Both the position numbers and the translations under genes were made by a program. Positions 16,972 to 40,408 of a DNA stretch of 64,000 bases are shown here, piece after piece. The notes beneath the pieces were generated by a model. It saw only the letters and a program-made list of their open reading frames with translations, was not told where the DNA came from and ran no database searches. Source of the DNA: Schmidtea nova (taxonomy: Eukaryota). Location: positions 216,380,001-216,444,000 of the forward strand of contig CM097883.1 of NCBI GenBank assembly GCA_044892505.1, written 5' to 3'. The stretch's first letter is position 1. Each line of letters opens with the position of its first letter.

Positions 16972-17856
16972 TTTAAATCTATTTTAAAATTGAATTAGGG
17001 AGTAAAAATTCAAAATGGCACACTATAGAGTTTAAAAATGTTTGATATTTAAACAAACCTTTTTTTCGTTGATAATTATTTAAAGTAAAAGTATCGATGA
17101 AAAATATCAAAATGTTTTTTATGATTATTAAATTAGAAATTCTTATTAACCAATTTAAATTATGGAACATTTTTAAAACAGAACTTTAGATTTGTAATTT
17201 TCAAATAATTTTCTAATCTCAAATTAGTGTCGTAAATATTTATTTCAATAAAAAACAATTTAGGTATTATAAAAAGATATTGTAAATTTATGAGGCTTTC
17301 ACGCAGTCTACTTATTCTAATATCGTGTATTATTTTGTTAATGAATTAATTTACTTTGTATTACTCGATGATGATGAAATTGGTGGGTTGTTGATCGTCA
17401 ATATGACCTTGACGTTGCTATGGCTCTCGTCAACAACTCAACACATAAAACATTAGATTTAACCATCTTGTTGCCCGTCACAATGTAACGTTGGTAATGC
17501 AACAAATGGGTGGGTATTCGCAATTAGTGAGCGTCGTCAATACGAAACTATGATTGACCGAATAACTCCTGGGTCCAAGGGCTACCGATAGAAGGATTAA
17601 TGCCCATTTTGTCCCTCCTATGCATTATTTACTTTCAAAAAATCATGAGTTATATCGAACTAAATTTACTACTAAACCTCAGTTGATTTTATTCAATTTA
17701 TTCCCTTTAAACATTCAAACAAATAAATTTTTCAAACACAAAAGAAAAACTTTTATGTCAGCTAAAACAACAACATAAACTACAAAGTAAGGCAATAAAT
17801 ACAAGATAAAATATAAATTGTCGATTCATATCACAACAACGTAATGTCAATCACTT

Positions 17857-18387
17857 CTAAGGACTCTTCGGATCTCGCAATCTCGCTTCCTGACGACGTC
17901 TTCGTCGAGCCCTCACTCCTTTGTTGGGTTTCTGCCGTGTAATTTTTGCTGGAACCGGAGGTGTCAGGATCTCTTCTTCGACCCTCACTTGGAACAATTC
18001 TCGAGGTGGACATGAAGATTTCGGCAAGATGGCAGTGATAATGCCGCTATCCACCCTCAATTTCCCGATCAGGAGCTCCTGCTCCCGTATCGTAACACGG
18101 CATGCTCGCAATCTCATTGCGTCTTCTGCAGCCTGTTGTAGAAGCATCTGGTTCTGCTTCTTCAGTTTGTTGTCGGTATCCTTGCCGGACCAGGTCGACT
18201 CCATATCTCTGCACCGCGCTCGAAATTTCTCCATCCGGGAGTTCATAATTTGCAACACGTCAGAGTTTGAGGTTTTCGTCTTTTCCATCTCGGCGAAGCA
18301 CTGATCTACCCATCGATTATGTCGGGCATTTTCCAAAATCAACCGGTGCATCTCCTCAAATTTTTGTTCCAGGTTCATTTCTGACAT
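17857..18387 (-). CDS. Orphan 176-aa coiled-coil protein with an Arg-rich C-terminus
   Basis: Higher-GC single ORF in AT-rich surroundings; TTTTAG immediately before the ATG; tail KGVRARRRRRQ. Shares a downstream DNA motif with the 22-kb ORF. Confidence 0.55.
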   Translation of the reverse strand: MSEMNLEQKFEEMHRLILENARHNRWVDQCFAEMEKTKTSNSDVLQIMNSRMEKFRARCRDMESTWSGKDTDNKLKKQNQMLLQQAAEDAMRLRACRVTIREQELLIGKLRVDSGIITAILPKSSCPPRELFQVRVEEEILTPPVPAKITRQKPNKGVRARRRRRQEARLRDPKSP

Positions 18388-20198
18388 CTAAAATCACACA
18401 TTCAATACACAATTAAGTCATCATCTAACATTATAATTTAATTTTAAATATTCATTTTAAATTATTAAGATAAAAATAATTTTATCGATGAACATTTATT
18501 GATTTTTCACAACCAACTATTATACACAAAATTTATCTCAAAACACAGGGATTTTCACACATTCATTATTAATTACAAGTTTATCCTCAAGTATACCATC
18601 GCCAACTCAATCCAGGGGTCGAAAAATCTTTGATCCATCACATAATTCGGGGTATACGATGTCTGTTGATTTTTAACTAAATCTTTATTATCTTCAAGAT
18701 TTTCTAAATTTGCATGTCTTTTTGTCAGAGAATTTAACGAAATTTTTACTTATCCCCTATACCTAGTGTCTAACTTGTTATTCTCATAGAAATTTTTTAT
18801 AAATTGTATTTTAAATTTTTAATAAATTTATATTTAAATTCTCACCGAGGCATTGGCAACGGTATCTATACAATTATTTCGTTAATTTCATATATTATTT
18901 TTGAAAATTCATTTAGGCTTTTCAAGAACTTTGAGGATGATTTCCGAACTCCAATTCTTACTCTTATTTACAAAATCCAATCCTGATCACTCTCCAGTCA
19001 GGAATATCCACGGACCCCTTATAAAAAGAAAAACTATATAAAAGGAAAACAAAAATTCTCGAATTTTGATTGGTTAATCTACAGTATGTAATTTTGATTT
19101 CTTTAATAAAATTATTGATTTAATTTAATTTTCTTTAGGCATGTTTTTGAATGAAATTTCAAGATCAGATCATTTATTCCACTATACAAAGGAAAATCTA
19201 CTAGTTGGATCGCCCCTAACACAGAAAATTTGGACAACTTCTCAATGCCAAGATTCTCTAATAAAGAAATGAGTATCTTCAAATGACAAGTAAATTATTA
19301 AATTGATTCAGATTTTCTTATTTTTCTTATATTTTAGACAAAGTGAACTCGTTTATGAGATGAAATCTTCGGTTCATTCGCTTTGCAAAGCCTAGAGCAG
19401 ATCATTTTTGGAATTTACTATCGACCTCGTCCTAATCTGATGTTCGTTCAAATAACAATTTTCTTTCTCTCGCCAGAGCCAAATTGGATTTTTTATTCAT
19501 ACGGTGATTCGATTTTAGTGACATTCCACAGCGTTCTCTTCCAGCAAACAGTTTATGACATAAATTTCTGAATAAATCTGGTGTTCGTATTTTTCTATCT
19601 TATGGTTTATTTCGAATGTTTTTATAATATTAAATGTTTTTACAATATTAGGATTAATTTAAATATATTTTCGTTTTTTGTCGTCATTTAAATCGTAGGT
19701 TTCAAGTCATTTAACCAACTTTTAGCTTCCATTTCTAAGGGATTTTTGATATGTTGTTATCCTGAAAAGAGTGATCGACAGTAAAAATTATCTCCTTTAC
19801 CATCCTTGGGTTTCTACGATTGACTTTCCCAACGATGGTATTTAGATCGATTAACTTATTGACCGAAATAGAAAGTGATATAGTCCATCTCAAGGGTGTT
19901 ATATAACGTAGTTCAGACTCTGTGAAAGCTTTAAGCTGTTACAGGCAGCAACTTGTTAGATTTTGGTAGTGATGCAAATAAAAGGGGGAATTTTCGTTTA
20001 ATGATTTAGTAATTTATCTTACCGGATAAAATAGCAAGCGGGTTGACAACTAATGATAAATGGAAAGTTGCTGGGACTACTGGAGGTGATAGGCGGAAGG
20101 TGGACTAATATAAACAGGGCGGTGCAATTTTGAATGAAGATGTGATTTTCATGTGTGATGGGAGATGTATATGTGGATTGTTGATTTCAAATTTGTGT

Positions 20199-21600: not shown

Positions 21601-22212
21601 GTTCTGCTCGCAATGTTCTGCTACTAAATGTTCTGTCACTATGATAAATACATGAAAAGTTATTATACTATTGAGATAATCACACATATTATTCTTAAAT
21701 TATAGTACAAATATATCAAAAATATATGAAATATACATTACTGCTGGGTTCATGGAGGGGTTAGATGAAAAATGCTCTAACAATGACTAGGGATCCCTCA
21801 TCCATGATCATGCATAAAATTGCAATTTTACACTCAAGCGCCCTTGATTATTTCCCTATATAATCAAGTTGGTGATGCGCAGGGTGGTTAAACAATGATG
21901 GGCAGGTGAGCACTATCGCTAGTACTACTCCCCATTTATGTTTACGGGTCCATTGCTGCCGTTAGAAGGACTTATGCTTTCATCATCTGCTTAGGTATTC
22001 CGCAATAATCTTTTTTAGAAAATTTATATTTAACATTGCGTATTCTGCGAGAAGTGTTTAAATCGAAATGCTCGCTTAATCATTTATTTACCCCTGTTAG
22101 GTATGTTGTGAGAGGAGTTTATACTTTTATTCTACATTTATCTAATTATTTGTCAAGTACTGAATCCATTTAAAAGAACAACAACAATTTTAAATTAACA
22201 CGAAAATTTTAT

Positions 22213-22809
22213 TTAAGTTTTAATTAATTCCGTAAAAACTCCCGCCGGAGGAAAAATTTCCGTCAACAATTCTCCTTCGGTCATCTGATGTAGACCATCT
22301 ACTTGACTCTGTAATCGCTGAGCGAATAATTTCCTCTGTCTTCGCCGTTTCTGCCCAATGCGCTTGCGTTTCTGGTGCGCATTTGCCGATGAGGTGATTG
22401 GGTTTGCTGCAGGAGCCGTCTCATTCCGACTTTCGATTAGATCGGCGACATCCGTGCCAATGGAATTTACAGTCTTCTTTTCCGCTGTCCAAGCTTGATA
22501 CGTAACCGGACGGATTTGCTCTCTGAGTTCTTTCTCGATATATGAGGCAGTTACGGAATGGAGGCATTTTCGGAGTTCTATCTTTGTAGCCTCCCATTCC
22601 ATTTGGTAATCGGCTGCAGTCTGCTGGGCGCGTTCGGTTTTACTGATTTGCTCTTTCATCCGGGCCGGAGCAAACCAGCTTTTGCGCAAGTATGCAATCT
22701 GTGCCTTGGCTTTGATCAATTGTGCCTTGAGGAGACCCAATTCCTTGTCCTGGGCTCTCCGGATCCGCCACATCTTTTCCAATTCTCTCTGTATCAAATC
22801 GGTGGTCAT
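22213..22809 (-). CDS. Orphan 198-aa coiled-coil protein with an Arg/Lys-rich C-terminal segment
   Basis: Intact ORF; TTATAG-A-ATG start context; degenerate homolog at 3569-4164. Confidence 0.7.
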   Translation of the reverse strand: MTTDLIQRELEKMWRIRRAQDKELGLLKAQLIKAKAQIAYLRKSWFAPARMKEQISKTERAQQTAADYQMEWEATKIELRKCLHSVTASYIEKELREQIRPVTYQAWTAEKKTVNSIGTDVADLIESRNETAPAANPITSSANAHQKRKRIGQKRRRQRKLFAQRLQSQVDGLHQMTEGELLTEIFPPAGVFTELIKT

Positions 22810-22989
22810 TCTATAATTTATTTAGGATATTCACTTTATGATTATATGAAAAATTAAAATCTGATTATAGGATTATTAGGTTACGAATACGAACCATTAA
22901 AAATACAAAACCAAAACTCAAAACAACAAAATAAAAACACCGCTGAACATTAATATTTGAACACAATTTAAACATTTTACAATCAGTTT

Positions 22990-23469
22990 TTATCTCCGAA
23001 ACAAGCTATGTAATTCGCTGTTAATCGGCCTCCGACGAAGACGAGCCCAAGAGAATGAGGGTTGTCCTTTCTGGCACTCCTTGCCGAACGGTTTTCGTGG
23101 TAGAAATTCGTGTAGGCCTAGTTGACATAGTTCCCGACGAGGGATGTGCCCCCAATAAATTATACGGCTTGTTCGTCCCTCAGTGTTCTTGACCAATACG
23201 ATCAATCGGCCAAACTTATTTGAGTACGGCCTTTGGGAAATCGGCCAGTTCGGTCCTCCTCGATAGAGTATTTGGTCGTTCCCTCCTGTCCATATCGAGA
23301 ACGGGCATTTTCGGCCAAACCCATGTCGCCACTTATACATCTGGCAGTTGAGGGTTCGCAATATTGATGCCGGTAGATCCTTGAGCTGCGAGATCTTTCC
23401 ATTTTGTATATTCCCTTGTTCCACATCCCGTAGTTGAGTTAATTGATTCATAAGTTCGGCTGTCGACAT
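22990..23469 (-). CDS. Orphan 159-aa basic protein
   Basis: Intact higher-GC ORF; AATATAG-ATG start context; 180 nt upstream of the 198-aa ORF on the same strand. No recognisable domain. Confidence 0.55.
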   Translation of the reverse strand: MSTAELMNQLTQLRDVEQGNIQNGKISQLKDLPASILRTLNCQMYKWRHGFGRKCPFSIWTGGNDQILYRGGPNWPISQRPYSNKFGRLIVLVKNTEGRTSRIIYWGHIPRRELCQLGLHEFLPRKPFGKECQKGQPSFSWARLRRRPINSELHSLFRR

Positions 23470-24173
23470 CTATATTACATTTATTGGATATAGAATATAT
23501 GAGTTAACGGAGGGAATTTGTTGATAAATCATTTATACTGCATATAATCACAAAAGTTACTTAAAATTAAGATTAATTTTATTTCTCTCCGCCGTGATCT
23601 ACCACGGTCGGAATAAAGAGTTCATAATTAGTCCTGTGCTATATACAGCATTCAGGAATATAGAATTTAATACCGATTTCCGCGCTATATACAGCGATCG
23701 GACTATAACTTGGGAACCGCGCCATATACGACGATCGGTCTATTTTTAGTAACTAATTTTAATTTTAACTTGGATTTTCCGACGCATTCCAATGCGATCG
23801 GAATTTATCGACATTATAATTTTGTAGGCGAGATGCCGATTCCGAATGAAATCGGACTTTAGACTACGTTGGATTTTCTTATTTCAGCGAAATTATTCAA
23901 ATTTATTTTATTTGTTGCTCACTGTTTTTCCATGCGAGAGGTTCCATTTCGATTCAATTGACTAAAAATTTAAATGATGAGTATGCCCTACCATGGGGTG
24001 TCCCTCCTTATCAATCCGCCCTCCGCATTCTCCCTATTTGGCCCTCGACACTCGTCCATTGTGCAACCCAGAATTAAATAATTAGTAAATGGTCTGTACT
24101 AGACTAAAAATTCAATCAAATTTTCTAAATAAAATTCTATATCTAACTAAATATTAAAAAGGTTGAACCGCCA

Positions 24174-24885
24174 TGTGAGACCGTGAGGCCCCACAACGAC
24201 GACTCGGACTCCCTCGCCGCGTGAGCAGCATAGGAAGTATAGCTATATGCATTAAAATGTCAATATAAAAAAAAAATAAAATAACGTTTACATATAAAAT
24301 TTTAATTGAATAAAAATCATGGGTACATCATATAAGACAAAATAAAGAAATTACTTCCGTACTTGAATGTGTGGTTCCTTGTATGAAATTCGGTTTTTTC
24401 AAAAAATCTCGTTTTGTTCAATGAAATATTACTTAAATCAAAGTTTAGTCTTGATTGTAAGTTAAAAGTAAAACGTCTGTTGTTGTGATTTTTGGATCGG
24501 TATTTATACTGATCCGTCTGGTTGGATTGACCAATCAGGATCAGGCCGTCCTTCAAAGTATTTTTATTATTTTATTCTAACCTAAACATTATTTTGTTTC
24601 CTTTTCCGGTTTCTCGCTGGGTAGTCCTGGTTTTCCAAGTAATTAATTAATTATTTGCACTATTATTTTATTTAATTCTATCTTTTCTTATTTCAGGCCC
24701 CCTTTTGCTGTTGTTTACCGGTTTATTTTCAAAATTTCCTTTTACTGAAAATTTATCAAATATTATTTGTCGTTTTATTGTTATTTTTAATTTGTTTTTC
24801 TTGTTATTTTTATGTTTATTATTTTCTTATTGTTTTGTGTTTTTGCTCTTTTATTGTGTTTTTAGGTGATTTGGCGGGCCCAACA
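24174..24885 (-). repeat. Putative 3' LTR (~712 bp) of the giant retroelement
   Basis: On the minus strand it begins TGTTGGG and ends GGTCTCACA. Contains ATTGG (24531-24535), TATAAATA (24508-24501) and ATTAAA (24306-24301) followed by a T-rich tract. A G-rich PPT-like tract precedes it at 24902-24886. The second LTR is outside the window, so the boundaries are unconfirmed. Confidence 0.45.
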
Positions 24886-25089
24886 TCACCCGGGGACCCC
24901 TAAAATTGCGTCCCGCAATTAATTATACATAAATACTTATATTCATCATACATAAAAAGTTTTATGGAATTATACACGCAAAGAAAAATCACGTAAGGTG
25001 ATCGAATTTATACTTATCATAAAGTTTGTCAATAAATAGTCAAAAATGTAATGATTTGTCACAATAGTTCGATAAGTTTATCATAATGT

Positions 25090-25659
25090 TTATACAATTT
25101 GCTCGATCGTCTGGCTCGCTTGGGGTTGAGTTCGGGTCCTCTCGTTGATTATTTGTAGCTCGTAGTGGGTTTGGATGTGGTTGAGGTGGCTCCTTATTCG
25201 TCTTTGAGCTCGGTTATCTCGTCTGGAGGTTTGGTTGTAGATTTTCTGCTTTTGTTTTAGGATCTTTATTCTATATGAGGCAATTAGGATTGTGATTGCG
25301 ATGATAGTTGTGCTGATTGCTAGGATTATGATGATTGCTATGATCCATTTTTCTTGATATTCTATTTCAGCTTGGGATAGGCTTTTTATGGGCTCTCTAC
25401 CTTCTTTCAGGATTTTTCGGGTTTCTTTTAATTTCAGTTGTTGGTTACCGAAGATTTGTTGGATTTGATGATCTTGATTGTAGGGGTATTTCTGTCGGAA
25501 TTCGTTGATTTCTTTAATTACTTCTTCGATTAGGCTGTCTACTTTCTGGTAGATTTTGTCGGGTAGAACTCGTAATTGGGTTTCGGTTAGTTGTAGATCT
25601 TCTCTCTGTAGGGTAATGGTTGTTAACCATAGGAGTGTTGCTATTGCGAGCTTTCTCAT
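25090..25659 (-). CDS. Type I membrane protein (~189 aa), last accessory gene of the retroelement
   Basis: Signal-like MRKLAIATLLWLTTITL from ATG 25659 (the ORF-track start at 25692 is GTG); TM WIIAIIIILAISTTIIAITILIASY followed by basic residues. Confidence 0.7.
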   Translation of the reverse strand: MRKLAIATLLWLTTITLQREDLQLTETQLRVLPDKIYQKVDSLIEEVIKEINEFRQKYPYNQDHQIQQIFGNQQLKLKETRKILKEGREPIKSLSQAEIEYQEKWIIAIIIILAISTTIIAITILIASYRIKILKQKQKIYNQTSRRDNRAQRRIRSHLNHIQTHYELQIINERTRTQPQASQTIEQIV

Positions 25660-25734
25660 CTCTTTTATACATCGGTCAATACAGCTTGACACTTTTTATT
25701 TTACATAATTTATTTACACTTGGTTTCCGCACAT

Positions 25735-26796
25735 TTATACAAGGGTTTCGTTGGGTTCGTGAAAACCTTCGTCTTGAGGTTCCACCTGATTTATGGGGAG
25801 TGGCATCCATATTACCGTGCTCCTCCACATTTCGACTTCTTCTCGGTATGTGTGGGATATCTGGATCTCTTCATCTAATAAGTATTCCAGATAGTTCGCT
25901 TGTTCTGTTAGGGTTTCAATTTGTTTTTCTAGTTCTGCCAATTTTTTCTCTCTCTCTTCCTTCTCCATCATTTCGGTCACTGCTGCTGTGATACTTGTTT
26001 CTTTTATTGGTGTTGGTTTTTCTGCCAACTTCTTTCTCAGTTCTTCGTTTTCTTTTGTCAAATTTGTTATGTTCTCTTCATAACTCTGCCTCGTTTCTTC
26101 CAGTCTTTCTTTAGTTCTTTTTAATTCTATTTTCTTCTGGGTGATCACTCCTTGATATCCATTTATGTCTCTTTTCATGTTTTCTTCCTTGTGATTCCAC
26201 ATTCCGGTCAGCATACCTTTTAATTGTTCTTGATTGGCTAAATCTTTTCCCATTCTTTGTACTTGATAAGTTAATTCTTTTATTTTCTTGGCTTGTTCTC
26301 TGATAAATTGTTGTCTTTTCTTACTCCATACTTTATTTGACGCTTCTTGACTGATCTTTTGCCCTAATTCCTCTTTTAATTCATCGATCTCTTTAAACAG
26401 TTTCCAATCATCGCTGTACGCTGTTCGTTCTATTATCTCCCTTGCTTCCTTGTAAGAGTCTTTTGCCTCTTTCTTCCAATATCTTGCTTGTTCTGTGATT
26501 GACTGAATCTTATGGTCTGTTTTTATTTGTTGTCTATCCCTATCCTCTCGTCGCTCTTTCATCATCTCTTTGTAGTATTCGTTTTGTTGTCTTAGCAGTT
26601 TGTAGACTTCTTCTATTTTTTCTCGACTTCTTTGATTTGTTTTCTCGGCTTCTCTTAGTGCTTGGGTTTGTCTTTCCAATTCCTCCTGTTTTCGATAATA
26701 GACATGAATCCATATCCCAGTCCGCTCCATGTGATTTCTGATCATTTCGTCTTGATGTACTGTTACTTCTTGTAAGGTTACTTCTATATTTCCCAT
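25735..26796 (-). CDS. 353-aa long coiled-coil accessory protein
   Basis: Intact ORF rich in E/K/Q/R; starts MGNIEV; AATTATAG-AA-ATG context. Confidence 0.75.
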   Translation of the reverse strand: MGNIEVTLQEVTVHQDEMIRNHMERTGIWIHVYYRKQEELERQTQALREAEKTNQRSREKIEEVYKLLRQQNEYYKEMMKERREDRDRQQIKTDHKIQSITEQARYWKKEAKDSYKEAREIIERTAYSDDWKLFKEIDELKEELGQKISQEASNKVWSKKRQQFIREQAKKIKELTYQVQRMGKDLANQEQLKGMLTGMWNHKEENMKRDINGYQGVITQKKIELKRTKERLEETRQSYEENITNLTKENEELRKKLAEKPTPIKETSITAAVTEMMEKEEREKKLAELEKQIETLTEQANYLEYLLDEEIQISHTYREEVEMWRSTVIWMPLPINQVEPQDEGFHEPNETLV

Positions 26797-26909
26797 TTCT
26801 ATAATTACAGATAAAAAGAATATTTAATCATTTTTTATTTTTATTGTTTTTGATTATTTGTTAATTCATATTGTTTCTATACATTTTATTTACATGGTTA
26901 CTTCCTTCA

Positions 26910-28286
26910 TTACGCCAACCATCCTTTTCTGTCTGTTTTCTCATGCCTCTCCATCTCTATGTATAGCGTGTCTGCATATAGTCGCTCCCATAGGTTTTCT
27001 TTCCTTATAAACATTGGTTCTCCTGCTGCTAGTCCGCATTCTGTTGTTGGTTTTTCGCTCGTACTCGTATGTTTGTCTGTTTCAAAGAACTTTTCTACTG
27101 GTTTTCCCATACTTTTGATTCTTATAATGACTCCTACTTTCAAGGGCCATTCTATTAGGTCATCGTATTCTCCTTTACATAGCGAGAAAAATATTGACAC
27201 GTGTGTTCCTTGTCCTCTTCCGTCTCCATTTGGGTATACTTTCAATCTTATTTTAACCCCGTTTTTCCATAAATAAAATGGTGGGCTTATTACTGCTGTT
27301 TTAGTCATATTTCTGGCTTCTGCTAGTTTGTCTCTGAAATCTGTTATTTTCCATAAGTAAGGTGCGATTGGTAAGTCCCTTCTTTCGTCAATTTCTCGTA
27401 TTAATTGATTATATTGTATTTTCATTCCTTTTCCTAATTCTTCTATGGCTATTATTTTCTTTTCCATTCTTTCGCGAGTTAGTTCAAACTGCTCTCTTGT
27501 TTCTAGTAGTAAACTCATCATTATCTTATGTGATTCTACTTCTTTTTCTAATTTCTGGATTGTCTGTTCCGTTTCTTTTGTCGTTTCGTTTGTCATTTCC
27601 ACATGCGTTAGTGCTGCTTCTTCTAGGTGTTGTTTCATTGATTGCCGCGTCCGCTTTTCTTTGCATCCCTGTTTGTTATATGGACATTCTCTTGGTCTTT
27701 CGGTACATACTTTCCAATGTTCATGTAACTTTACTTCTTCTGTTATTTCGCAATTGTTTGGACAGTTACTTACATATTGTCTGCATACTTTCTCCTCTGT
27801 TATATTCAAGTGTTCCTCTTCGATTTTTCTCCTCGTTTCTCGAGTTTCACAATACTCGCATGCGATTTCTTCTTCTTTACATTCTTCCTTGTGTTGTTCT
27901 CTCTTCTTTAGAGTTATTGTCTGTTGGCATTTCTCGCATTCGGCTCTCTTTTCCTCGCATTTTTCCATATGGTTCTCCAGATTACTTATTTGTCCTTGCC
28001 ATGTACAAGGTGTATTTACGCACTCCGTTGTGGTGCTCATAATTTCTCTTTGGGTTGCTTTGTCCGTTCTGGTTTCGTCCAACACTATTCTTCCTTCCTT
28101 ACATTCTGGGCATGTTGTTATTCCTGTTGCATCTAATTCTTGTATACATTTTGTACATATTCTACATCCACATATCGTTTGTCTGGGTTCTCGTAGTAAA
28201 TTATTACATTTCCCGCAGGTGAGCCTCTTGCTCCATTTTCTGTTTTCTAGTCTCAAAATTTCGATTATTCGTTCTTCTCTGTCCAT
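26910..28286 (-). CDS. Intronless TRAF-family protein (RING, TRAF zinc fingers, coiled coil, MATH); most like the TRAF2/3/5 type
   Basis: RING CGKC...CGCRICTKC...CPEC; zinc fingers such as CTWQGQISNLENHMEKC and HWKVCTERPRECPYNKQGC; MATH YLWKITDF...SPPFY...YPNGDGRGQGTHVSIFF...GEYDDLIEWP. Confidence 0.92.
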   Translation of the reverse strand: MDREERIIEILRLENRKWSKRLTCGKCNNLLREPRQTICGCRICTKCIQELDATGITTCPECKEGRIVLDETRTDKATQREIMSTTTECVNTPCTWQGQISNLENHMEKCEEKRAECEKCQQTITLKKREQHKEECKEEEIACEYCETRETRRKIEEEHLNITEEKVCRQYVSNCPNNCEITEEVKLHEHWKVCTERPRECPYNKQGCKEKRTRQSMKQHLEEAALTHVEMTNETTKETEQTIQKLEKEVESHKIMMSLLLETREQFELTRERMEKKIIAIEELGKGMKIQYNQLIREIDERRDLPIAPYLWKITDFRDKLAEARNMTKTAVISPPFYLWKNGVKIRLKVYPNGDGRGQGTHVSIFFSLCKGEYDDLIEWPLKVGVIIRIKSMGKPVEKFFETDKHTSTSEKPTTECGLAAGEPMFIRKENLWERLYADTLYIEMERHEKTDRKGWLA

Positions 28287-28379
28287 TTTCTACAATAATA
28301 TATACATTCGACTTGTCATTTATTTTTGGTTTTTCTTGTTTTTTATTTTTACATATTTACAATTTTCCGCTTTATTTAT

Positions 28380-28736
28380 CTATGGCTCATTCGTTGAATC
28401 TGGTTCCGCTTCGTTGTTTAGTCTATTTATTACCCAACTCATCCATCCTTCTTCGGATTCTTCTCTTTCTCCTCGTGTTAAATGGTTTATTTCTATTGCT
28501 TGTCTTTGATTGATATTGCTTATATTTTGATTTTCTCTGGTGAGCTCGGTTATCACTCTTTGTTGTTCTTCTATTCTGTGTAATTGTTCGAAACAGTTGT
28601 TATAACTTTCTGATAATAACATTTGTCTTTCCGCTAATTGGTTCTGTAATGAGTTGACTGTTCGTACTAATAAATCACATTGTGCCTTCCATCTCATAGC
28701 CATAGTTATTTCAGTTGTTTCGTCTTGTTCGTTCAT
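28380..28736 (-). CDS. 118-aa coiled-coil accessory protein
   Basis: Intact ORF between pol and TRAF; AATTTAG-AAA-ATG context. Confidence 0.7.
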   Translation of the reverse strand: MNEQDETTEITMAMRWKAQCDLLVRTVNSLQNQLAERQMLLSESYNNCFEQLHRIEEQQRVITELTRENQNISNINQRQAIEINHLTRGEREESEEGWMSWVINRLNNEAEPDSTNEP

Positions 28737-28860
28737 TTTCTAAATTATATACATCGTTTACTTGCTTTTCTATCTTTTTACAATTTTTATAATATCGATA
28801 CCCATACTATTACGGTAATGCTTTGTTATTTACACTATTATTTACAGTCATAATCCGCCC

Positions 28861-31800
28861 CTATACCATCATTATCGTCTTTTCCTCGTATCGTTCTTCA
28901 TCTTCTATTTGTTTCCAGAATTCTTTACCTTTCGTTCTTCTTTGGAGTTCTTGCTGTATCTCTTCTGGTATTTCTATTCTTTGCTTCATAATTTTAATAT
29001 CTGGCCATTGTATGGCTGTCGCTTTGTTTCTCTTTCTGTATCTCCCATATATTATCATGCTTGTCGTCATTATCCCATATGCTATTAATATTCCTATACT
29101 GATTAATCCTATTACTGTTTTTCCACGGTTTGTTGCTTTGATTTTATTCTGATTCGCTTTTATCTCATTTTGGGTTTGAGCCTCTGGCTTCTTCTCCTTC
29201 TGTACTTGATTCTTGACTTTGTTCATTACTTCTTGTGTAGACCAATGGCGATTTAGTAGTTGTTTGACGTTATTTTCTTTTGTTCGGTTTTCCACGTTTC
29301 CTGGTTCGATCTGTTGTTGTAGTTTCTCTGAGATCTGATATAATCCGCATTCTGGTTTTTCTGAACCTTTTCTAGTGAAGGTACATATCGCGTATGTCTT
29401 ATTTACTTCCATTTTCTTTAATTCGACTTTTTCCTTATTCCCTGTTTCTTTACAGTGGGTTAGGTTGCCTTCTTCTCCTTCTGGGTTATGCTTTGTCCAA
29501 CATATTCCTTTCACTGTTTGATCGAGTCCTGTTAATGTCAGAGTTCTTTCTGTTTTGGTTAACTCTTCTTCGTCGAATTTCAGTATTTCTCCTTTTTGAA
29601 ATGTCTTACAATGCTCTATTCCCTCTTGGATTCCTTTCTCCCAGATACATATACTTCCTTCTTCATTCATTTGTATTTCTTGTATTTCGATTTCCTTGTT
29701 TGTTTGTGATTCGTCGCTTGTCTGAACTTGGTATTCCTTCCTTGGTTCGTTGTATGTTCCCCAGCATAGTTTGTTGCTGCTTGTTTTTCTTATTGTTATG
29801 GCCATTTGTTCTATTATTATTCCTCTGTCAAAACGTTTGGACATTGCTATTATTAACGCTATGCATACGCACTCTTGTTGGGGTGATGTTCTTTCTCTCG
29901 TGTTATTGGTGCTTTTCTCCCCTTCTCCTGGTTTATCCGTTGTGTTTCTTATCTGAGTTGCTGGTTGATCTATGGTGTTTTTGATTTCTTTCTTTGTTGG
30001 TTTTACTCTATACCATTCGAGTCTAGGCGTTTCGTATTTTTGACATACGACTGTCTTAGGTAGCCCCGACTTCTTTTCCTTTCCTATTATGCATATCCGA
30101 TGCATGATTCCTCTGTCCATCCCTTCTATTCGTACTATATCCTGGTCGGATTTTCTGATTATACATTTTAGTGGGTTATCTTTCCCAATTGGTTCATCCT
30201 CTCTATTCCAGCATATTTTCTCGACCTCCTGGACATTTACTATTTTTATCCCTGCTTGTAGGTTTGTTGCTTCTTCCCTATTGATTAACGTTAGTATTAT
30301 TGTTAGACCCAACCATTTTGAACTCTGCGGTAGGCTTCTGGTTCGCCTTTCATATTTTTTCTCTTCTCCTTTAATCTCTTTTATTTCCTTGTCTTCGTTG
30401 TTTATTCCTAGTTTTCCGCTTTTTGTTTCTTTCTTATTTGTTTCTTCTCGTGCTTTTTCTTCTAGTATTTCTACTCCATGGCTTGTATTATCTATATTTA
30501 GCCATTGGGTTGTTGATTTTCTTGGGTTTATCTTGCGTATCCATATAGCTGATAACGCGATTATTACTGGTATGGTCGCTGTTAATATTCCTAAGCCAAT
30601 TAGTTCTTTAATTTCTTTATTCTCGTCTGTTTGTATAGATTCGCTTTGGTTGAACATTATTCCGTATTGTCCCTTTAGTTTTCTCATTAATTGTTCTCGT
30701 TCCTCTTGTTTTCTTTTGACTTCTTTGATAACTTCTTCAGGTGTCCATTTTGCTTGAGGATCGGTTATTATTTTTTCTGCGTCCATTTGTTCATTCGTTT
30801 GGCTTAGTTCCTTGAATTCGAGTTTCCTTGCTACTCCTTTTGATGTCGCGTTTGCTGGTGTATAGTAGGTTTCGCATCTTTCTTGTTGGTTTCCTAGTGT
30901 GTTCATTTTTTCTATTGTACATACTTCATACTCGCTATTAAATTGTAGTTTTTCGATCCTGATTTCTTTATTTGTTTTTCTGCACTCTCTTGATTGTCTT
31001 CTTATATGTTTCTGGACTATTATCCAACATATTTCCAATGTTTTATTCTCTATTTTCCATAATGTTAGAGTTGCTGATGTCTTTCTCTCGGGTTTTGTCG
31101 TAACTTCCTGGCTTATTGGTTGTTTATTGCTTTTAAAGGTAGTGGTGTACTTCGGTTTTCCTTTGTTTCGTTGTTTCCTTTTATTTTTCCGTGTTAACGT
31201 TTTGGTTCTTGTTCCGGATGAAGTCGTATGTATTCCGCATTCTAGGTCGTTTATCGTTATCTGATCATTTTTCTTTACCAAACATATTTCGTAGGTTTGT
31301 TTACTTTCTAAACCTTTTATTTGAATCGTCGTTGTTCCTGTGTTTGTTCGACATTGTGGTGTCGTTCTTTTATTTACTTCTTTTTCGTACTTCCTCCAGC
31401 ATACTCCTTTCACATTTGGTTCTATCTCTTTTATTTCTAATGTTATGTTTACTTTCCGCTTGATTTGTTTATTTCTCTTCCTCGTTCTCCTTCGGAACTT
31501 TATTACCTCTCCAGGTTGGAATGTTTTACATTTTGTGGTACCTTTCTTGTTCCTCTCTTTCTCAAGTAGGCATAGTTTGTACATCTTGTCTGCTCTTACT
31601 TCGGATACTTTAATTACTTTGTTTGTTGTTGGCTTTCGACTTTTCCTTATTTCGTTTACGCCGATTTCTTCGTCATTCCTCGCCCAACATTTTATGTTAG
31701 TGTTCTGTGTATCTTCCACTTCTGTTATTGTCATAGTTTCAATTTCTATTCCTTCCTCTAATCGTTTTATTATTATTAGTATGAGTGCTAAGCATAATAC

Positions 31801-34800
31801 TTCCATTTGGTAAGACACTCTTTCGGTTTCGTTTGTGGCAACTCTTGCTTCGGGCCTCTTTATTGTAATTCGTATAGTTGGTGTTGTTTGCTTATCTATT
31901 GCCTGGGGTTTTTTGTTTTCTGTTCCCTGTGTCTCTGTTCTTCCACATTTTCCGAGGATGTAATCTCCTTTGGGTGACTGTTGTATTGTCATGGCTGCTT
32001 TAGGTGTTTGGTATTTTGCACATGCGATTGTGTTGTGTGATCTTGGATGCTTTTGTTTTCTAACGGTGCATATTTTGTACCAGGTATTTAGATCTAGGTC
32101 GTTGATCTCTATGATTTCTTGCTCGTGTTCTGAGATTCTGCAATCCATCGGGCTATTTTGTTCCGTGATTTTGTCCTTTTTCGACCAACATACTCGTTCG
32201 ATTCCCTCTGCGTTTTTTATTTGTATTATTGCCCTTTCTTCACATGTCATTCCCTGACTTGGATTAATTAACGTTATAATCATTGTTAATAATAGTAATT
32301 CTGGTTTGAAGAATGGTTTTATGGTTGATTTATAACCTGTTCTTTGGGTGTCATTTTTATCTCCTTGGTCGTTTTTTCCTTGTTCTCCATCTTCATCTCT
32401 TTGTTTTTCGTCTTCACTTTTCTTTTCTTCCTTGTCTCGTTTCTTGTCTTTTCTCTCGTTTTCCTCTTTATCGGGTGGTTCGTGATCGTTTGAATTTTCT
32501 GAGTTGTTACCGTCGTCACTATCTGTATTGTCATCTCCCCCTGGCTCGTCGAAAATGTCGTCCTCGACATTGATTTCTTCTATCAATTTTGCATATGCTA
32601 ATGTCGTTAGGTTACTTGCCTCAAATTCTTGTGTTTCTACCTGCTCCGGTATTACTTTGTTAGTGGATTTATATTCCAAGATTTCCTTTTTGGCCTTGAT
32701 CCAATTGTTGATGTATGTCTTCATCAATTCTTTCCATTTGCCTGTGTATTTTTCTTCTTTCGGGCTGGTTGTGATTCTTAGATCCTTTCTTTCCATAAAC
32801 ATCTTCAATATCTCTGGCCATTTATACGTTATTAGGGCACTTCTTATACACCAGTTCTGGTTATGTTCTGTAAACTCATTAATCCTGAAAGCTGGTTCGT
32901 TTGTATTCGGGTTGATCCACGTGAGTATTGATTCTGTTAGTTCGACATTGTGCATCATTGTCAATACACTGGGTTTCTTAATTGTTTTGGTTAGGTATTC
33001 TATTTCTTTCTGGTTTGAGACGGTTTTAATGAAACTGACCATTTCCCAATTGTGTGTTAATAATGCTACATCCAATATTGAATTATCTTTATCTGTTTTA
33101 CCTGTAAGTCCTGCACCTGCTTTGTATAGTTCTTCTAATACCTTTGTTTTCGTTTTGGCCCTTGCTGCAAATACCATAAGTGTATCTCCTTTCTCGTCTA
33201 CCCTATTCATATTGCTTCCGCAATTTAGCATTACTCGTGCAATTTCCATTACTTTTCTATCTTTGCCATTTCGTAAAGCTCTATGTATGGGCATTATTCC
33301 GTCCTTTGGTAGTAAAAATGTTACTGGCATCTCCTTTTTTATAGTCGTTATATCGTTGCCATTGTATGTTCCTTTTGCGTATGCGTGTACTTTTTCAACT
33401 AATGCGCCGAGTATTTCCAGTGCATGTTTACTATTCTCGAATTCCGGTAACAATTCTTTTGCTTTTTCTTGTATCGCATCTAGTCTAGCTTGGTATGGTG
33501 CTTCTGCTTTAAAGAGTGGTGTGAGTTTCTTGTTACTTTCTCTTTCTTTTTTCTCTAAAACCTGTTTGCATTTTTCGGGATGGTTTAAGATTTTTACTAA
33601 TTCCTCATATTCGCTTACTATCGTCTGGTATTTCTCGTTAAAATTGTTTATGTCTTTGTATGTTATTAGTTTATCAAGTGGTTTCGCACACCATTTCCTA
33701 ATCTTGTTGAATAAGGCATTCTTTTCTTTATCGAATTGATGTTCTTCTTCATTCTTTGTGATGTTTATGTTTCCTCTATCTAATAAGGTTAGTAATGTCT
33801 TCTGATCACAAGTAAATTTCAAAAGGTATCTTAACAGTGCGTTTTGTCCTTCGCTGTATACTTCGTTTATGTCTAAGACCCATGTATCATCTTCTGGTCG
33901 TTTCCATTTGACTAACTTACGGATCGTGTTGCATTTACCAATTTTGATTGCCTCTTTGATAATGTCTCCTTTAACTAGTTCGTCTATCTCCCAAGTGGAG
34001 TTAGCTATTATGTATTTCAGCATTGGTTGGTGAGAACTCCATATTACGTGATTTAGCACTGTTTTGTCTTCTCTATCTCGTTCTGTCCAACTGAAATGAG
34101 CTTTTATCAATAGATCTATCATTTCTTTATCTGCTTGGTGGATTGCGGCTGTCATTAATGGAGTTTCTTGTTCCCGATTCCCTACGTCCAAGTTTTGGTT
34201 TGTTTCTTTTGCGATTTTTAGGAATTCTTTTGCTCTTTCAATGTTTTTACACTCTATCGCATTATGTAAGGCTGGTTGTCCTCCTACATCTTTCAATAAG
34301 AGTATTTCAGGGATTTTTTCCAATAATTCAGAAATAATTGGTTCGGTTGGTAATCCTTGTGCGTAACGGCTAATTATATGTCTAATATCCCTTGATATGC
34401 CTGCTTCGTCTCTAACATGCCATCTTCCCATTATCTCTCTCGCCTTCAATATGATTTCTTTATTTCTGATTTCTTTTTGCCTTATTTCTGCTTTGTCGTC
34501 TTCAGTTGCATTAGCTCTGAGCATATTTATCCTGGCTGTTTGTGATCTAGTTATTATTCGATTTTCTGGTGTTGTAGTTATCGTTTTAGGCACCTTCTTA
34601 CATCTGCAGGTGTTTACATATATGGGTCGTATTAAGGGTCGATTTATTAGCTTAACTTTGACATTATTGTCCTTTTTGTATATAATTTCATAAGGTCCTC
34701 TTCCAGGTCTTTGGAGTTTCTTAACTGTTCCTGGTATTATTTCGGGAGTTTCTATTATCACCCAATCTCCTGGTTTTAGATCGTTCGCTTTAACATTTTT

Positions 34801-35136
34801 CTTCTGGTCGTGTAAGTCCTTATAACTTTCCTGATAAAATTTAATGTTGAGTTCTGCCGTTTTCCATATTTCCTGCATTCTTTCTTTGAATTTGGTTACG
34901 TAGTCGTCATCTTCCATATATTGCGATAATGGTGGCTGATACTCTAAATCTATGGGCATGTTGCATTCTCTTCCATACATAAGTTGAAATGGGCTTAGTT
35001 TTGTTGCTGCATGTATCGACATTCGGTATGCCATTAAACATAATTTTATGTATTCGTCCCAATCAGTCTGATGTCTGCTGACGTAATTTGATAACATTCT
35101 GATCAATGTACCATTGAATCGCTCCGTTTGTCCATT
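28861..35136 (-). CDS. 3' part of retroelement Pol: integrase C-half, ankyrin repeats and two FN3-like membrane modules
   Basis: NGQTERFNGTLIRML carries the catalytic E; GPY motif RPGRGPYEII; ankyrin-like units at ~34290-33030; repeated W...C...I-x-x-L...Y-x-I-C domains, signal-like segments and two TM helices. The first 23 aa of the ORF-track entry come from the Maverick TIR. Confidence 0.9.
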   Translation of the reverse strand, partial: NGQTERFNGTLIRMLSNYVSRHQTDWDEYIKLCLMAYRMSIHAATKLSPFQLMYGRECNMPIDLEYQPPLSQYMEDDDYVTKFKERMQEIWKTAELNIKFYQESYKDLHDQKKNVKANDLKPGDWVIIETPEIIPGTVKKLQRPGRGPYEIIYKKDNNVKVKLINRPLIRPIYVNTCRCKKVPKTITTTPENRIITRSQTARINMLRANATEDDKAEIRQKEIRNKEIILKAREIMGRWHVRDEAGISRDIRHIISRYAQGLPTEPIISELLEKIPEILLLKDVGGQPALHNAIECKNIERAKEFLKIAKETNQNLDVGNREQETPLMTAAIHQADKEMIDLLIKAHFSWTERDREDKTVLNHVIWSSHQPMLKYIIANSTWEIDELVKGDIIKEAIKIGKCNTIRKLVKWKRPEDDTWVLDINEVYSEGQNALLRYLLKFTCDQKTLLTLLDRGNINITKNEEEHQFDKEKNALFNKIRKWCAKPLDKLITYKDINNFNEKYQTIVSEYEELVKILNHPEKCKQVLEKKERESNKKLTPLFKAEAPYQARLDAIQEKAKELLPEFENSKHALEILGALVEKVHAYAKGTYNGNDITTIKKEMPVTFLLPKDGIMPIHRALRNGKDRKVMEIARVMLNCGSNMNRVDEKGDTLMVFAARAKTKTKVLEELYKAGAGLTGKTDKDNSILDVALLTHNWEMVSFIKTVSNQKEIEYLTKTIKKPSVLTMMHNVELTESILTWINPNTNEPAFRINEFTEHNQNWCIRSALITYKWPEILKMFMERKDLRITTSPKEEKYTGKWKELMKTYINNWIKAKKEILEYKSTNKVIPEQVETQEFEASNLTTLAYAKLIEEINVEDDIFDEPGGDDNTDSDDGNNSENSNDHEPPDKEENERKDKKRDKEEKKSEDEKQRDEDGEQGKNDQGDKNDTQRTGYKSTIKPFFKPELLLLTMIITLINPSQGMTCEERAIIQIKNAEGIERVCWSKKDKITEQNSPMDCRISEHEQEIIEINDLDLNTWYKICTVRKQKHPRSHNTIACAKYQTPKAAMTIQQSPKGDYILGKCGRTETQGTENKKPQAIDKQTTPTIRITIKRPEARVATNETERVSYQMEVLCLALILIIIKRLEEGIEIETMTITEVEDTQNTNIKCWARNDEEIGVNEIRKSRKPTTNKVIKVSEVRADKMYKLCLLEKERNKKGTTKCKTFQPGEVIKFRRRTRKRNKQIKRKVNITLEIKEIEPNVKGVCWRKYEKEVNKRTTPQCRTNTGTTTIQIKGLESKQTYEICLVKKNDQITINDLECGIHTTSSGTRTKTLTRKNKRKQRNKGKPKYTTTFKSNKQPISQEVTTKPERKTSATLTLWKIENKTLEICWIIVQKHIRRQSRECRKTNKEIRIEKLQFNSEYEVCTIEKMNTLGNQQERCETYYTPANATSKGVARKLEFKELSQTNEQMDAEKIITDPQAKWTPEEVIKEVKRKQEEREQLMRKLKGQYGIMFNQSESIQTDENKEIKELIGLGILTATIPVIIALSAIWIRKINPRKSTTQWLNIDNTSHGVEILEEKAREETNKKETKSGKLGINNEDKEIKEIKGEEKKYERRTRSLPQSSKWLGLTIILTLINREEATNLQAGIKIVNVQEVEKICWNREDEPIGKDNPLKCIIRKSDQDIVRIEGMDRGIMHRICIIGKEKKSGLPKTVVCQKYETPRLEWYRVKPTKKEIKNTIDQPATQIRNTTDKPGEGEKSTNNTRERTSPQQECVCIALIIAMSKRFDRGIIIEQMAITIRKTSSNKLCWGTYNEPRKEYQVQTSDESQTNKEIEIQEIQMNEEGSICIWEKGIQEGIEHCKTFQKGEILKFDEEELTKTERTLTLTGLDQTVKGICWTKHNPEGEEGNLTHCKETGNKEKVELKKMEVNKTYAICTFTRKGSEKPECGLYQISEKLQQQIEPGNVENRTKENNVKQLLNRHWSTQEVMNKVKNQVQKEKKPEAQTQNEIKANQNKIKATNRGKTVIGLISIGILIAYGIMTTSMIIYGRYRKRNKATAIQWPDIKIMKQRIEIPEEIQQELQRRTKGKEFWKQIEDEERYEEKTIMMV

Positions 35137-36241
35137 AGTAGACAGAAGTGTGCACCATGAGTCATCGCAGAACAAAGGAAATGACGTCATCGATGAGTCA
35201 TCCATGACCCCCCCGATGACTCATAAATGACGTCATCGATGACTCATAAATGACGTCATCGATGACTCATAAATGACGTCATCGATGACTCATCGATGAC
35301 TCATCGATGACTCATCACATGACTCATCGATGACTCATCGATGACGTCATCGATGACTCATTTCAAATTTGAATTTTATGACGTCATCGATGACTCATTT
35401 CAAATTCAAATTTTAAATTTAAATTCCCAAGGGTCCGATAAGGTCAGACCTTCAAACAAGGGTATCATTCGAAAGGTCTTTTAAAGGTCTATCCAATGGT
35501 CATACCCTCGAGGGTGTATGGAGGATCCTTAACCTTCAAAGGGGTCAAAAACCTTCAACCTTTTACAATCCTTATAATATACATATCAAACAAAAGGTAA
35601 TTGGGAGGTAAGTAAGATGGTCATACCCTCGAAGGTGTATGGAGGATCCTTAACCTTCAAGGGGTCAAAAACCTTCAACCTTTTACAATCCTTATAATAT
35701 ACATATCAAACAAAAGGTAATTGAAGGGTGCACACAATGGTCATACCTTCCAAGGTCTATGGTGGGTGCTCAACCTTCAAAGGGTACAAAACAAGGATAT
35801 AAAGGTAAGTACGGTTTTCTTAATGACTCATCAGTATGACTCATTGGGATGACTCATTAGTATGACTCATCAATATGACTCATCAGTATCACTCATTGGT
35901 ATGACTCATCAGTATGACTCATCAGTATGACTCATCAGTATGACTCATCAGTATGACTCATCAGTATGACTCATCAGTATGACTCATCAATAAATATTAA
36001 CAAAGACAATGCAATCCATGTGCAAAGAAACAAAGACAATGCAATCCATGTGCAACGAAACAAAGACTAATGAAATATAATATTTAATAATAATAATTTT
36101 GTACAGAGATAAATTGTGTGTGTGTGTGTTTAAGACAAATCACAGTACTCATTGAACGCGCGTGAAACGCGCGTTCTTCTTCCTTGTTTTATAAGACAAA
36201 TCACAGTACTCATTGAACGCGCGTGAAACGCGCGTTCTTCT
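35137..36241 (+). repeat. Left TIR (at least 1105 bp) with internal tandem arrays
   Basis: Reverse complement of 51834-52916, differing by one extra 23-bp unit and a 7 versus 8 C run. Contains 11-13 bp TGACTCA/TGACGTCA arrays, ~120-bp direct repeats and two ~58-bp repeats. Confidence 0.95.
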
Positions 36242-36258
36242 TCTTCCCTTGTTGTTTA

Positions 36259-36295
<37 letters not shown>

Positions 36296-36299
36296 TTAT

Positions 36300-36902: not shown

Positions 36903-36967
36903 TTTAAATAAATACAAAATAAAATAAAAAACTAAATTTGTTCATAGTAAAATTTATTAAATAACAA

Positions 36968-37384
36968 TTAGGCGTATCGTGCATTATCAACTCTCCAAAT
37001 TGGAGTTGTCACTTCCTTTTTATCAACCTTGTATCCTTGAATGATTATCGTAACGAACCAGTGTTCTTGATCAATGAAATCGATTGTTTGATAAGCATTA
37101 TGGAAACGAGTCTTCCTGTTATTGATATACATCGTTTCTTTACAAATTAAATTCACATTGATTTTTGAAAATACTCTATTTAGTGCGATAATATCCTCTT
37201 TATCAATAATAATAGATAGACTATCATACAACGACTTTGTTAATTTTACGGGATAAGATAAGCGAAACGGAATTTCTTCTACCAAGAAATAGATTCGGCT
37301 ATCATAATACATCTGGACTGGTTTCACCTCAGTCGGGAATAATCTTTCTTCGCTGACATCATAACCTCGTTTTCGTGAATCCAT
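36968..37384 (-). CDS. Maverick hypothetical protein (~138 aa, probable start MDSRKRG)
   Basis: Intact ORF; the region upstream of it is conserved in element B. Confidence 0.6.
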   Translation of the reverse strand: MDSRKRGYDVSEERLFPTEVKPVQMYYDSRIYFLVEEIPFRLSYPVKLTKSLYDSLSIIIDKEDIIALNRVFSKINVNLICKETMYINNRKTRFHNAYQTIDFIDQEHWFVTIIIQGYKVDKKEVTTPIWRVDNARYA

Positions 37385-40405: not shown

Positions 40406-40408
40406 ACA

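What the first reader, a model, noticed from the sequence alone, without database searches (positions are those of the whole stretch)
25090..28860. Operon-like 3' gene cluster with stereotyped ~100-nt spacers
Seen: spacers of 124, 93, 113 and 75 nt. All four contain TGTAAATA on the coding strand (28846-28839 and 28834-28827, 28361-28354, 26894-26887, 25718-25711), three contain AATAAA, and three end in an AT-rich TAG 2-3 nt before the ATG (TTTAG-AAA-ATG, TTGTAG-AAA-ATG, TTATAG-AA-ATG). The same AG-next-to-ATG context occurs at 18387, 22809, 23469 and SF3B3. Established: nematode and tunicate operons are resolved by polyadenylation plus spliced-leader trans-splicing over similar spacers, and UGUAHAUA is the Pumilio element. 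Inference: the element uses host trans-splicing (or alternative cis-splicing from one donor) to express downstream genes, possibly under PUF control.
Basis: partly seen in the sequence, partly recalled or inferred. Interest (0 to 1): 0.76.

Follow-up and report, generated by a model that had tools for sequence, protein, structure and literature searches.

The report
Spliced gene cassette of giant retrotransposon
Four intact extra genes at the end of a giant flatworm retrotransposon are separated by short spacers that each carry a conserved motif about 15 bases after the stop codon and, in three of the four, a conserved TAG just before the next start codon, so each gene is likely expressed by splicing, probably to the element's own leader and possibly to the host's spliced leader.

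Summary
Observation confirmed. The spacers lie in the 3' accessory cassette (118-aa ORF, TRAF, coiled-coil, membrane protein) of a ~30-kb Burro-type Ty3/gypsy LTR retrotransposon of a planarian; a Maverick interrupts its integrase. In 14 spacers from three families (TRAF proteins 37-54% identical to the window's), TGTAAA sits 14-20 nt after the stop codon in 12 (shuffles 0.18) and YAG lies 0-7 nt before the ATG in 13 (2.8). AATAAA is at chance level. The host has SL RNA genes, so trans-splicing is possible. However, the LTR has an AUG-free leader with a conserved GTAAT donor, and no Burro ORF start tested was found joined to SL among about 1,045 genomic SL copies (weak negative). Best reading: cis-splicing from a common leader (0.5), with the motif as a stop-anchored RNA-binding site, Pumilio-like; SL operon 0.3. 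No RNA run was available. The scan reached a similar common-leader reading on other DNA. Side findings: an LTR family whose LTRs carry SL plus captured spliced host mRNAs, and Burro-type LTR ends just upstream of 4 of 7 host SL acceptors.

The parts
28861..35136 (-). 3' part of pol: integrase C-terminal half continuing in frame into ankyrin repeats and a long tail; ends at the stop before spacer 1
   Evidence: Ank_2 E 1.5e-12; integrase identity from tblastn to related elements
28737..28860 (-). Spacer 1 (124 nt): TGTAAATA at 28846 (+14) and 28834; acceptor-like TTTAG ending 28740
   Evidence: both motifs and the AG kept in 19 of 19 copies
28380..28736 (-). 118-aa accessory ORF, no Pfam family
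   Evidence: intact in 19 of 19 copies, dN/dS about 0.23; 33-51% identical homologues in two other families
28287..28379 (-). Spacer 2 (93 nt): TGTAAATA at 28361 (+18), second TGTAAA, A-rich middle, TTGTAG ending 28290
26910..28286 (-). TRAF-like protein (zf-TRAF and MATH), 458 aa
   Evidence: MATH_2 E 1.3e-21; intact in 17 of 19 copies, dN/dS about 0.19
26797..26909 (-). Spacer 3 (113 nt): TGTAAATA at 26894 (+15), TTATAG ending 26799
25735..26796 (-). Coiled-coil protein, 353 aa
   Evidence: only a weak Filament hit below cut-off; intact in 19 of 19, dN/dS about 0.21
25660..25734 (-). Spacer 4 (75 nt): TGTAAATA at 25718 (+16); ends AAGAG|ATG (distal AG 19 of 19, proximal 16 of 19)
   Evidence: the orthologous spacer in family 3 ends CAG|AA|ATG
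25090..25659 (-). 189-aa protein with hydrophobic N-terminus and one likely membrane segment (inferred from sequence)
   Evidence: intact in 19 of 19, dN/dS about 0.33; 34% homologue in family 3
21742..24889 (-). 3' LTR (3148 bp, TG...CA), 99.8% identical to the 5' LTR at L021:5345-2198 (beyond the window); 4-bp target duplication GTAA
24349..24535 (-). LTR promoter and leader: ATTGG 24535, TATAAATA 24508, AUG-free leader, candidate donors GTAATA 24432 and GTAATT 24354 followed by a T-rich tract
   Evidence: same layout in family 3; GTAAT or GTAAC kept in 15 of 16 variant leader ends
22990..23469 (-). LTR-internal ORF (159 aa) behind TAG|ATG
22213..22809 (-). LTR-internal ORF (198 aa) behind TAG|A|ATG
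35137..52916 (.). Maverick/Polinton insertion splitting the integrase (TIRs about 1.1 kb, 6-bp TSD TCCATT)
52917..63111 (-). gag (CCHC knuckle) with env-like fusion glycoprotein in frame, then protease-RT-RNaseH-integrase (frames broken in this copy)
   Evidence: Monjiviricetes_fusion E 4.9e-71, RVT_1, rve
17381..18779 (-). LTR fragment of another Burro-type family with the 176-aa ORF at 18387; ends 410 nt upstream of the host SF3B3 ATG

Best explanation
The spacers are conserved junctions between four intact accessory genes of a Burro LTR retrotransposon, and each downstream gene is likely expressed as its own mRNA by cis-splicing the short AUG-free leader of the 5' LTR to the AG just before its start codon, while the TGTAAATA pair 14-20 nt after each stop codon is predicted to bind a Pumilio-like protein on the translated message. 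Shown: element identity, ORF selection, motif and AG conservation, and the LTR leader and donor anatomy. Inferred: that the AGs are used, that the partner is the LTR donor, and that the acceptors are deliberately weak so that full-length genomic RNA survives. Speculative: what the bound protein does (stability or translation control, or shielding long 3' UTRs from NMD as the RSV stability element does).
For: YAG 0-7 nt before ATG in 13 of 14 spacers of three families (shuffle mean 2.8, max 9); 13 of 14 spacers also hold upstream ATGs, which such splicing would remove. TAG kept in all 100 listed of 141 S1/S2 start contexts; the single off-pattern hit is an A-run slip with TAG intact. The AG-to-ATG distance changes between orthologues (TRAF 3 nt in family 1, 1 nt in families 2 and 3) and CAG replaces TAG, so it is not a retained stop codon. 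LTRs of family 1, its subfamily and family 3 have ATTGG, TATA, an AUG-free leader and a GTAAT donor. A cis donor out-competes SL for an acceptor, shown for an LTR in a cestode (PMC4558846, passages). No SL-Burro junction was found. Spacer acceptors are A-rich (last 60 nt 21-35% T) unlike five host SL acceptors (40-51% T). The motif is anchored to the stop (+14 to +20 in 12 of 14; shuffle mean 0.18, max 3) while spacer length varies from 73 to 289 nt; it differs at 2 of 760 positions versus 139 of 6935 in the rest of the spacers. Planarian poly(A) sites lack UGUA enrichment (PMC5068929, passages).
Against: No spliced molecule was seen: 0 leader-ORF junctions in genomic copies. The LTR donor could serve only the nearby LTR ORFs, leaving distal acceptors to SL as in an operon. 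The leader would have to reach acceptors about 20-24 kb away past several others. No equally clear leader was identified in family 2. Spacer length matches flatworm intercistronic distances (median 99 bp in S. mansoni, PMC12582326; mode about 100 bp in Macrostomum, PMC8629364). The SL-capture set is small and redundant (35 junction classes among loci in hand), so its silence is weak. The 14 spacers are partly orthologous (about 6 independent positions). Only 10 of 14 carry the full 8-mer at +14 to +18. The A-richness is also just the element's general strand bias.
Confidence: 0.5

Rival explanations
1. Operon resolution by host machinery: the pre-mRNA is cleaved and polyadenylated in each spacer and the host SL is trans-spliced onto the next AG, giving monocistronic mRNAs with very short 3' UTRs. 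This may also run alongside cis-splicing.
For: Three SL RNA genes with donor and Sm-like site at G000:C2:409.01 Mb. SL is joined at host AGs in 7 of 7 source genes found. Spacers of about 100 nt match flatworm operons. Flatworm acceptors often take both cis and trans partners (PMC12582326). 4 of 7 host SL acceptors have a Burro-type LTR end 435-671 nt upstream in sense.
Against: AATAAA at chance and absent from spacer 1. No UGUA at planarian poly(A) sites. An upstream cis donor exists. No SL-Burro junction: 0 of 71 (compared by eye), 0 of 100 listed of 259, 0 hits. Full-length genomic RNA must escape every cleavage site.
Confidence: 0.3
2. One polycistronic RNA is translated by termination-reinitiation or internal entry on the A-rich spacers, the stop-proximal motif holding the ribosome or a factor.
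For: The motif is fixed to the stop codon; spacers are A-rich and fold weakly.
Against: 13 of 14 spacers contain upstream ATGs; a conserved YAG behind a T-richer tract is not needed for reinitiation.
Confidence: 0.08
3. Each ORF has its own internal promoter, with TGTAAATA read as a forkhead-type DNA site (recalled consensus).
For: Smaller env-bearing gypsy elements in the same genome show an ATTGG plus TATA promoter before their 3' ORF.
Against: Those promoter spacers are about 400 nt; family 1 spacers have no ATTGG or CCAAT within 200 nt of the ATG (0 of 4; 4 of 14 over all families). The motif is strand-specific and stop-anchored.
Confidence: 0.07

Closest known systems
Burro / GYPSM1 giant gypsy-like LTR retrotransposons of planarians (PMC6431247, passages)
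   Same: About 30 kb; gag with CCHC knuckle; env-like fusion glycoprotein between gag and pol; ankyrin, MATH-TRAF and BIR/RING accessory domains; accessory ORFs.
   Different: TRAF here is a separate ORF 3' of pol; ORFs lie inside the LTRs. The passages read say nothing on how accessory ORFs are expressed or on spacer motifs.
Complex retroviruses and errantiviruses: subgenomic mRNAs from one 5' donor to several acceptors (recalled)
   Same: LTR promoter, short leader, weak alternative acceptors before each ORF.
   Different: The candidate donor is inside the LTR upstream of the primer-binding site; ORFs do not overlap and are separated by stereotyped spacers; about seven accessory ORFs; no Rev-like export factor identified.
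Flatworm and nematode operons resolved by SL trans-splicing (PMC12582326, PMC8629364, passages)
   Same: Same-strand genes about 100 nt apart, acceptor near the ATG, SL machinery present in the host.
   Different: Inside a retroelement that must also make uncut genomic RNA; spacers A-rich; an upstream cis donor exists; SL use not shown.
Rous sarcoma virus RNA stability element (PMC4764554, passages)
   Same: A position-dependent cis element just after a stop codon on a retroviral RNA with ORFs downstream.
   Different: The RSE is 400 nt and binds PTBP1; this is a short UGUA pair repeated after nearly every ORF, with no function tested.
Pumilio response element UGUANAUA (recalled)
   Same: Exact 8-mer match in 10 of 14 spacers at +14 to +18 in 3' UTR position.
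   Different: The second copy is usually UGUAAAAA and UGUA is scattered through the spacers (54 versus 8.6 expected), so another UGUA-binding protein is possible.

Membership tests
Burro-type giant Ty3/gypsy LTR retrotransposon | Two long direct LTRs with TG...CA ends, target duplication and primer-binding site | tested here: met
   3148-bp LTRs 99.8% identical, GTAA TSD, tRNA-Pro-like PBS (tRNA assignment recalled)
Burro-type giant Ty3/gypsy LTR retrotransposon | PR-RT-RH-IN order | tested here: met
Burro-type giant Ty3/gypsy LTR retrotransposon | env-like fusion glycoprotein in frame between gag and pol | tested here: met
   Monjiviricetes_fusion and zf-CCHC in one 2408-aa ORF; feature per PMC6431247
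Burro-type giant Ty3/gypsy LTR retrotransposon | Length near 30 kb with TRAF, ankyrin and BIR/RING cargo | tested here: met
   About 29.8 kb without the Maverick; domains (BIR in family 2 only)
Burro-type giant Ty3/gypsy LTR retrotransposon | Sequence identity to the named Burro1-4 references | not testable with these tools
   References not held; the primary paper could not be opened
SL-resolved eukaryotic operon | Host has SL RNA and trans-splices | tested here: met
SL-resolved eukaryotic operon | Short same-strand spacers with a 3' acceptor | tested here: met
SL-resolved eukaryotic operon | SL joined to the downstream ORFs | tested here: inconclusive
   No junction in genomic SL copies; small redundant sample; three acceptor contexts of families 2 and 3 not covered
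SL-resolved eukaryotic operon | Poly(A) site in each spacer | tested here: inconclusive
   AATAAA at chance level; no 3'-end data
Common-leader (retrovirus-like) cis-splicing | AUG-free leader with conserved donor after the promoter | tested here: met
   Families 1, 1b and 3; not resolved in family 2
Common-leader (retrovirus-like) cis-splicing | Leader-ORF junction molecules | not testable with these tools
   No RNA holder listed; none among genomic copies
Pumilio response element | UGUANAUA in a 3' UTR, conserved | tested here: met
Pumilio response element | PUF binding and regulation | not testable with these tools
   needs CLIP, EMSA or RNAi

The most novel reading that the evidence does not exclude
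Burro is a retrotransposon organised as a true eukaryotic operon: it borrows the host's spliced leader to cut a row of captured immune and apoptosis genes (TRAF, IAP-like) out of one transcript, and puts all of them under one stop-anchored Pumilio-type switch. The same genome shows two further links between LTR elements and SL: a family that stores SL-capped host mRNAs in its LTRs, and Burro-type LTRs sitting just upstream of host SL acceptors.
Probability: 0.3. Interest if true: 0.82.

Novelty: new variant of a known kind. Interest (0 to 1): 0.58.

Why it matters
Burro elements are among the largest LTR retrotransposons and are abundant in planarian genomes, but how their many accessory genes are expressed was not described in the papers I could search. 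The spacers give a concrete grammar (stop, 15 nt, UGUA pair, A-rich stretch, YAG, ATG) conserved across families with 28-55% protein identity. Either outcome is informative: retrovirus-like multi-acceptor splicing in a Ty3/gypsy element, or a mobile element run as an SL operon. One long-read or 5' RACE experiment separates them, and PIWI knockdown is reported to raise Burro RNA (PMC8532177, passages). The SL-capturing LTR family found on the way is a fossil record of host trans-spliced 5' ends and a candidate mechanism for gene capture.

Tried and rejected
RNA evidence: no RNA holder listed. The four listed runs are contigs of unrecorded type that run unspliced across spacers and carry a transposase-type adapter (label recalled), so probably DNA. 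Their summed depth is highest at the LTR TATA bin and flat over the spacers, but contig depth cannot rank parts and is not used. Spliced retrocopies: 16 leader ends with a non-G next base were all unspliced variants; 1 hit for an altered S1/S2 upstream context was an A-run slip. An in-frame deleted family-3 copy (L113) has no splice-like junction by inspection. The idea that the SL's AUG supplies the gag start was dropped: in-frame stops lie between the candidate acceptors and gag. The reading frame of the SL AUG does not discriminate, since both Burro and host junctions occur at several distances. The first SL-gene pattern found nothing because of a variant Sm site; a looser one found 3 genes. 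Protein database search with TRAF gave only 2 distant hits at E 1e-40 or better among 3228 candidates. Host control: TGTAAA at +12 to +22 after the stop in 0 of 30 host TRAF loci, many near-identical paralogues; 2 of 30 carry a similar pair at +11 and are among the three best BLAST matches, but the MATH tree does not resolve a donor. No shared hairpin in the four spacers. The enolase locus was not followed up as an operon control. Family-2 spacers ank>118aa and 150aa>TM come from a damaged copy with uncertain stops; both are the misses and were kept in the count, and one further family-2 spacer was left out. Literature: 0 papers hold all of retrotransposon, spliced leader, subgenomic, trans-spliced; 0 hold spliced leader, retrocopies, LTR, template switch; the listings showed none on Burro accessory-gene expression. 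Two key papers were not held, and subscription journals and unread supplements may bear on novelty.
Full report
Context. The cluster is on the minus strand at the 3' end of a giant LTR retrotransposon. A 2408-aa ORF holds a CCHC knuckle and a fusion glycoprotein, followed by protease, RT, RNase H and integrase; a Maverick with 1.1-kb inverted repeats splits the integrase, whose second half runs in frame into ankyrin repeats and ends at 28861. The 3' LTR is 24889-21742; its partner lies just beyond the window, 99.8% identical, with a GTAA target duplication. Env between gag and pol, TRAF, ankyrin and BIR cargo and a size near 30 kb match the Burro elements of planarians (PMC6431247, passages). 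The host carries the exact planarian spliced leader.

Observation. All stated coordinates are right. TGTAAATA is present in all four spacers (shuffle P about 0.05-0.06 each) and absent from the rest of the two element segments scanned. AATAAA is at chance. The ORFs at 23469 and 22809 are inside the LTR, 18387 belongs to an LTR fragment of another family, and SF3B3 is a host gene with its AG 7 nt from the ATG.

The cassette is under selection. The search scored 38 of 874 candidates, all 97-100% identical including the window itself. In 19 other copies, 74 of 76 ORF copies are intact, dN/dS is about 0.19-0.33 (differences counted against the window copy, so not independent), the motifs differ at 2 of 760 positions against 139 of 6935 elsewhere in the spacers, and the AG of spacers 1-3 is kept in 19 of 19. 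Genome-wide, all 100 listed of 141 S1/S2 start contexts read TAG.

The grammar is old. Two diverged families (TRAF 54% and 37% identical) keep it. Over 14 spacers, TGTAAA starts 14-20 nt after the stop in 12 (shuffle mean 0.18, max 3), YAG lies 0-7 nt before the ATG in 13 (mean 2.8, max 9), and TGTA occurs 54 times (mean 8.6). The two motif misses are from a damaged family-2 copy. The spacers are partly orthologous, about six independent positions. Spacer length varies from 73 to 289 nt while the stop-to-motif distance does not, so the motif is tied to the stop codon. About 15 nt is where a terminating ribosome stops covering the RNA (recalled), which fits a protein site on the translated message better than a nuclear poly(A) signal; planarian poly(A) sites show no UGUA enrichment (PMC5068929, passages). 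Host TRAF 3' ends show the motif in that window in 0 of 30 loci, with 2 near misses at +11.

Which donor? The host can trans-splice: three SL RNA genes with donor, hairpins and Sm-like site. The SL 3' end also occurs 1045 times (control 0), mostly in a separate LTR family whose LTRs hold SL plus captured host mRNA. For 9 captured 5' ends searched, the source gene was found in 7, and in all 7 an AG sits at the junction; one shows an intron missing from the captured copy. I used this as a fossil library of SL targets. No Burro ORF start appeared: 0 of 71 SL-A(1-3)TG junctions (compared by eye), 0 of 100 listed of 259, 0 hits for three further starts. The library is redundant, so this is weak. 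On the cis side, LTRs of family 1, its subfamily and family 3 have ATTGG, TATA, an AUG-free leader and a GTAAT donor, and a cis donor out-competes SL (PMC4558846, passages). No leader-ORF junction exists in genomic copies either. Against the cis reading, the donor could serve only nearby LTR ORFs, and spacer size matches flatworm operons (PMC12582326; PMC8629364; passages). Flatworm acceptors often take both partners, though least at operon sites.

Other rivals. Smaller env-bearing gypsy elements in this genome show an ATTGG and TATA promoter in a 400-nt spacer; the family-1 spacers lack it. Reinitiation is disfavoured by upstream ATGs in 13 of 14 spacers.

Verdict. A real, conserved expression module of a known element type. 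Cis-splicing from the LTR leader 0.5, SL operon 0.3, reinitiation 0.08, internal promoters 0.07. The motif matches the Pumilio element (recalled), but binding and effect are untested; an NMD-shield role by analogy to the RSV stability element (PMC4764554, passages) is speculative. Earlier AI notes reached a common-leader reading on other DNA; they are not independent support. Also read as passages: PMC10899757 with its supplement Fig. S6 text, PMC7346339, PMC8532177.

Noticed in passing
G000 genome-wide, e.g. L159-L170 (C1:5643001, C1:10500001, C1:68221501): An LTR family of about 5-7.5 kb whose LTRs (1.0-2.0 kb, TG...CA, 99.4-100% identical within a copy, often in (ATT)n tracts) consist of about 105 nt of fixed sequence, the full 42-nt spliced leader, then differing spliced host-mRNA 5' pieces and a short fixed end. 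12 of 13 fetched regions show two such LTRs; 1045 exact SL-end hits; 7 of 7 source genes found have AG at the junction. The internal frame carries HSP90 and ubiquitin fragments and no RT or integrase hit. Likely capture by strand transfer through the shared SL (inferred). PMC12582326 notes only partial leaders near LTR/LINE elements in parasitic flatworms. Possibly more novel than the assigned finding.
   Followed up: partly
L190, L206, L213, L253; window 17381 upstream of SF3B3: The end of a family-2-type Burro LTR lies in sense orientation 435-671 nt upstream of 4 of 7 host SL acceptors, and 410 nt upstream of the SF3B3 ATG. Background is 10 hits in 838 kb, about 0.4% per such window. Suggests targeted insertion at, or co-option as promoter of, such genes. 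No control of non-SL gene starts was run.
   Followed up: partly
L180-L182 (G000:C2:409.01 Mb): Three SL RNA genes in a cluster, leader ending in AUG, GTACGG donor, Sm-like AATTTTTAA, three hairpins.
   Followed up: yes
G000, one search list: More than 40 dispersed enolase N-terminal fragments lacking profile positions 61-77; probably amplified inside a mobile element.
   Followed up: no
L075, L077: Two host TRAF-like loci carry TGTAAATAAAATATGTAAA 11 nt after the stop, like the Burro spacer motif, and are among the best BLAST matches to the Burro TRAF; the tree is unresolved.
   Followed up: partly
window 63111-63700: An acidic open frame of 197 codons (121-149 in family 3) without ATG precedes gag and ends in a conserved QDSGI motif, suggesting a non-AUG or spliced start.
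   Followed up: partly
L055:6805-7202, L060:6538-6953: Smaller env-bearing gypsy families have ATTGG, TATA, a GTAAT donor, a short intron-like stretch and TTTTAG before their single 3' ORF: an internal-promoter design.
   Followed up: partly
window 35137-52916; 20199-21550; 1-5000; L061, L174: Mavericks repeatedly insert in or beside these LTR elements; the window's Maverick encodes a TBP-like protein at 38671-39138.
   Followed up: no
window 28861-32330: The pol tail holds a hydrophobic segment followed by repeated cysteine-containing units and membrane-like segments, resembling a surface protein fused to integrase; no Pfam hit.
   Followed up: no
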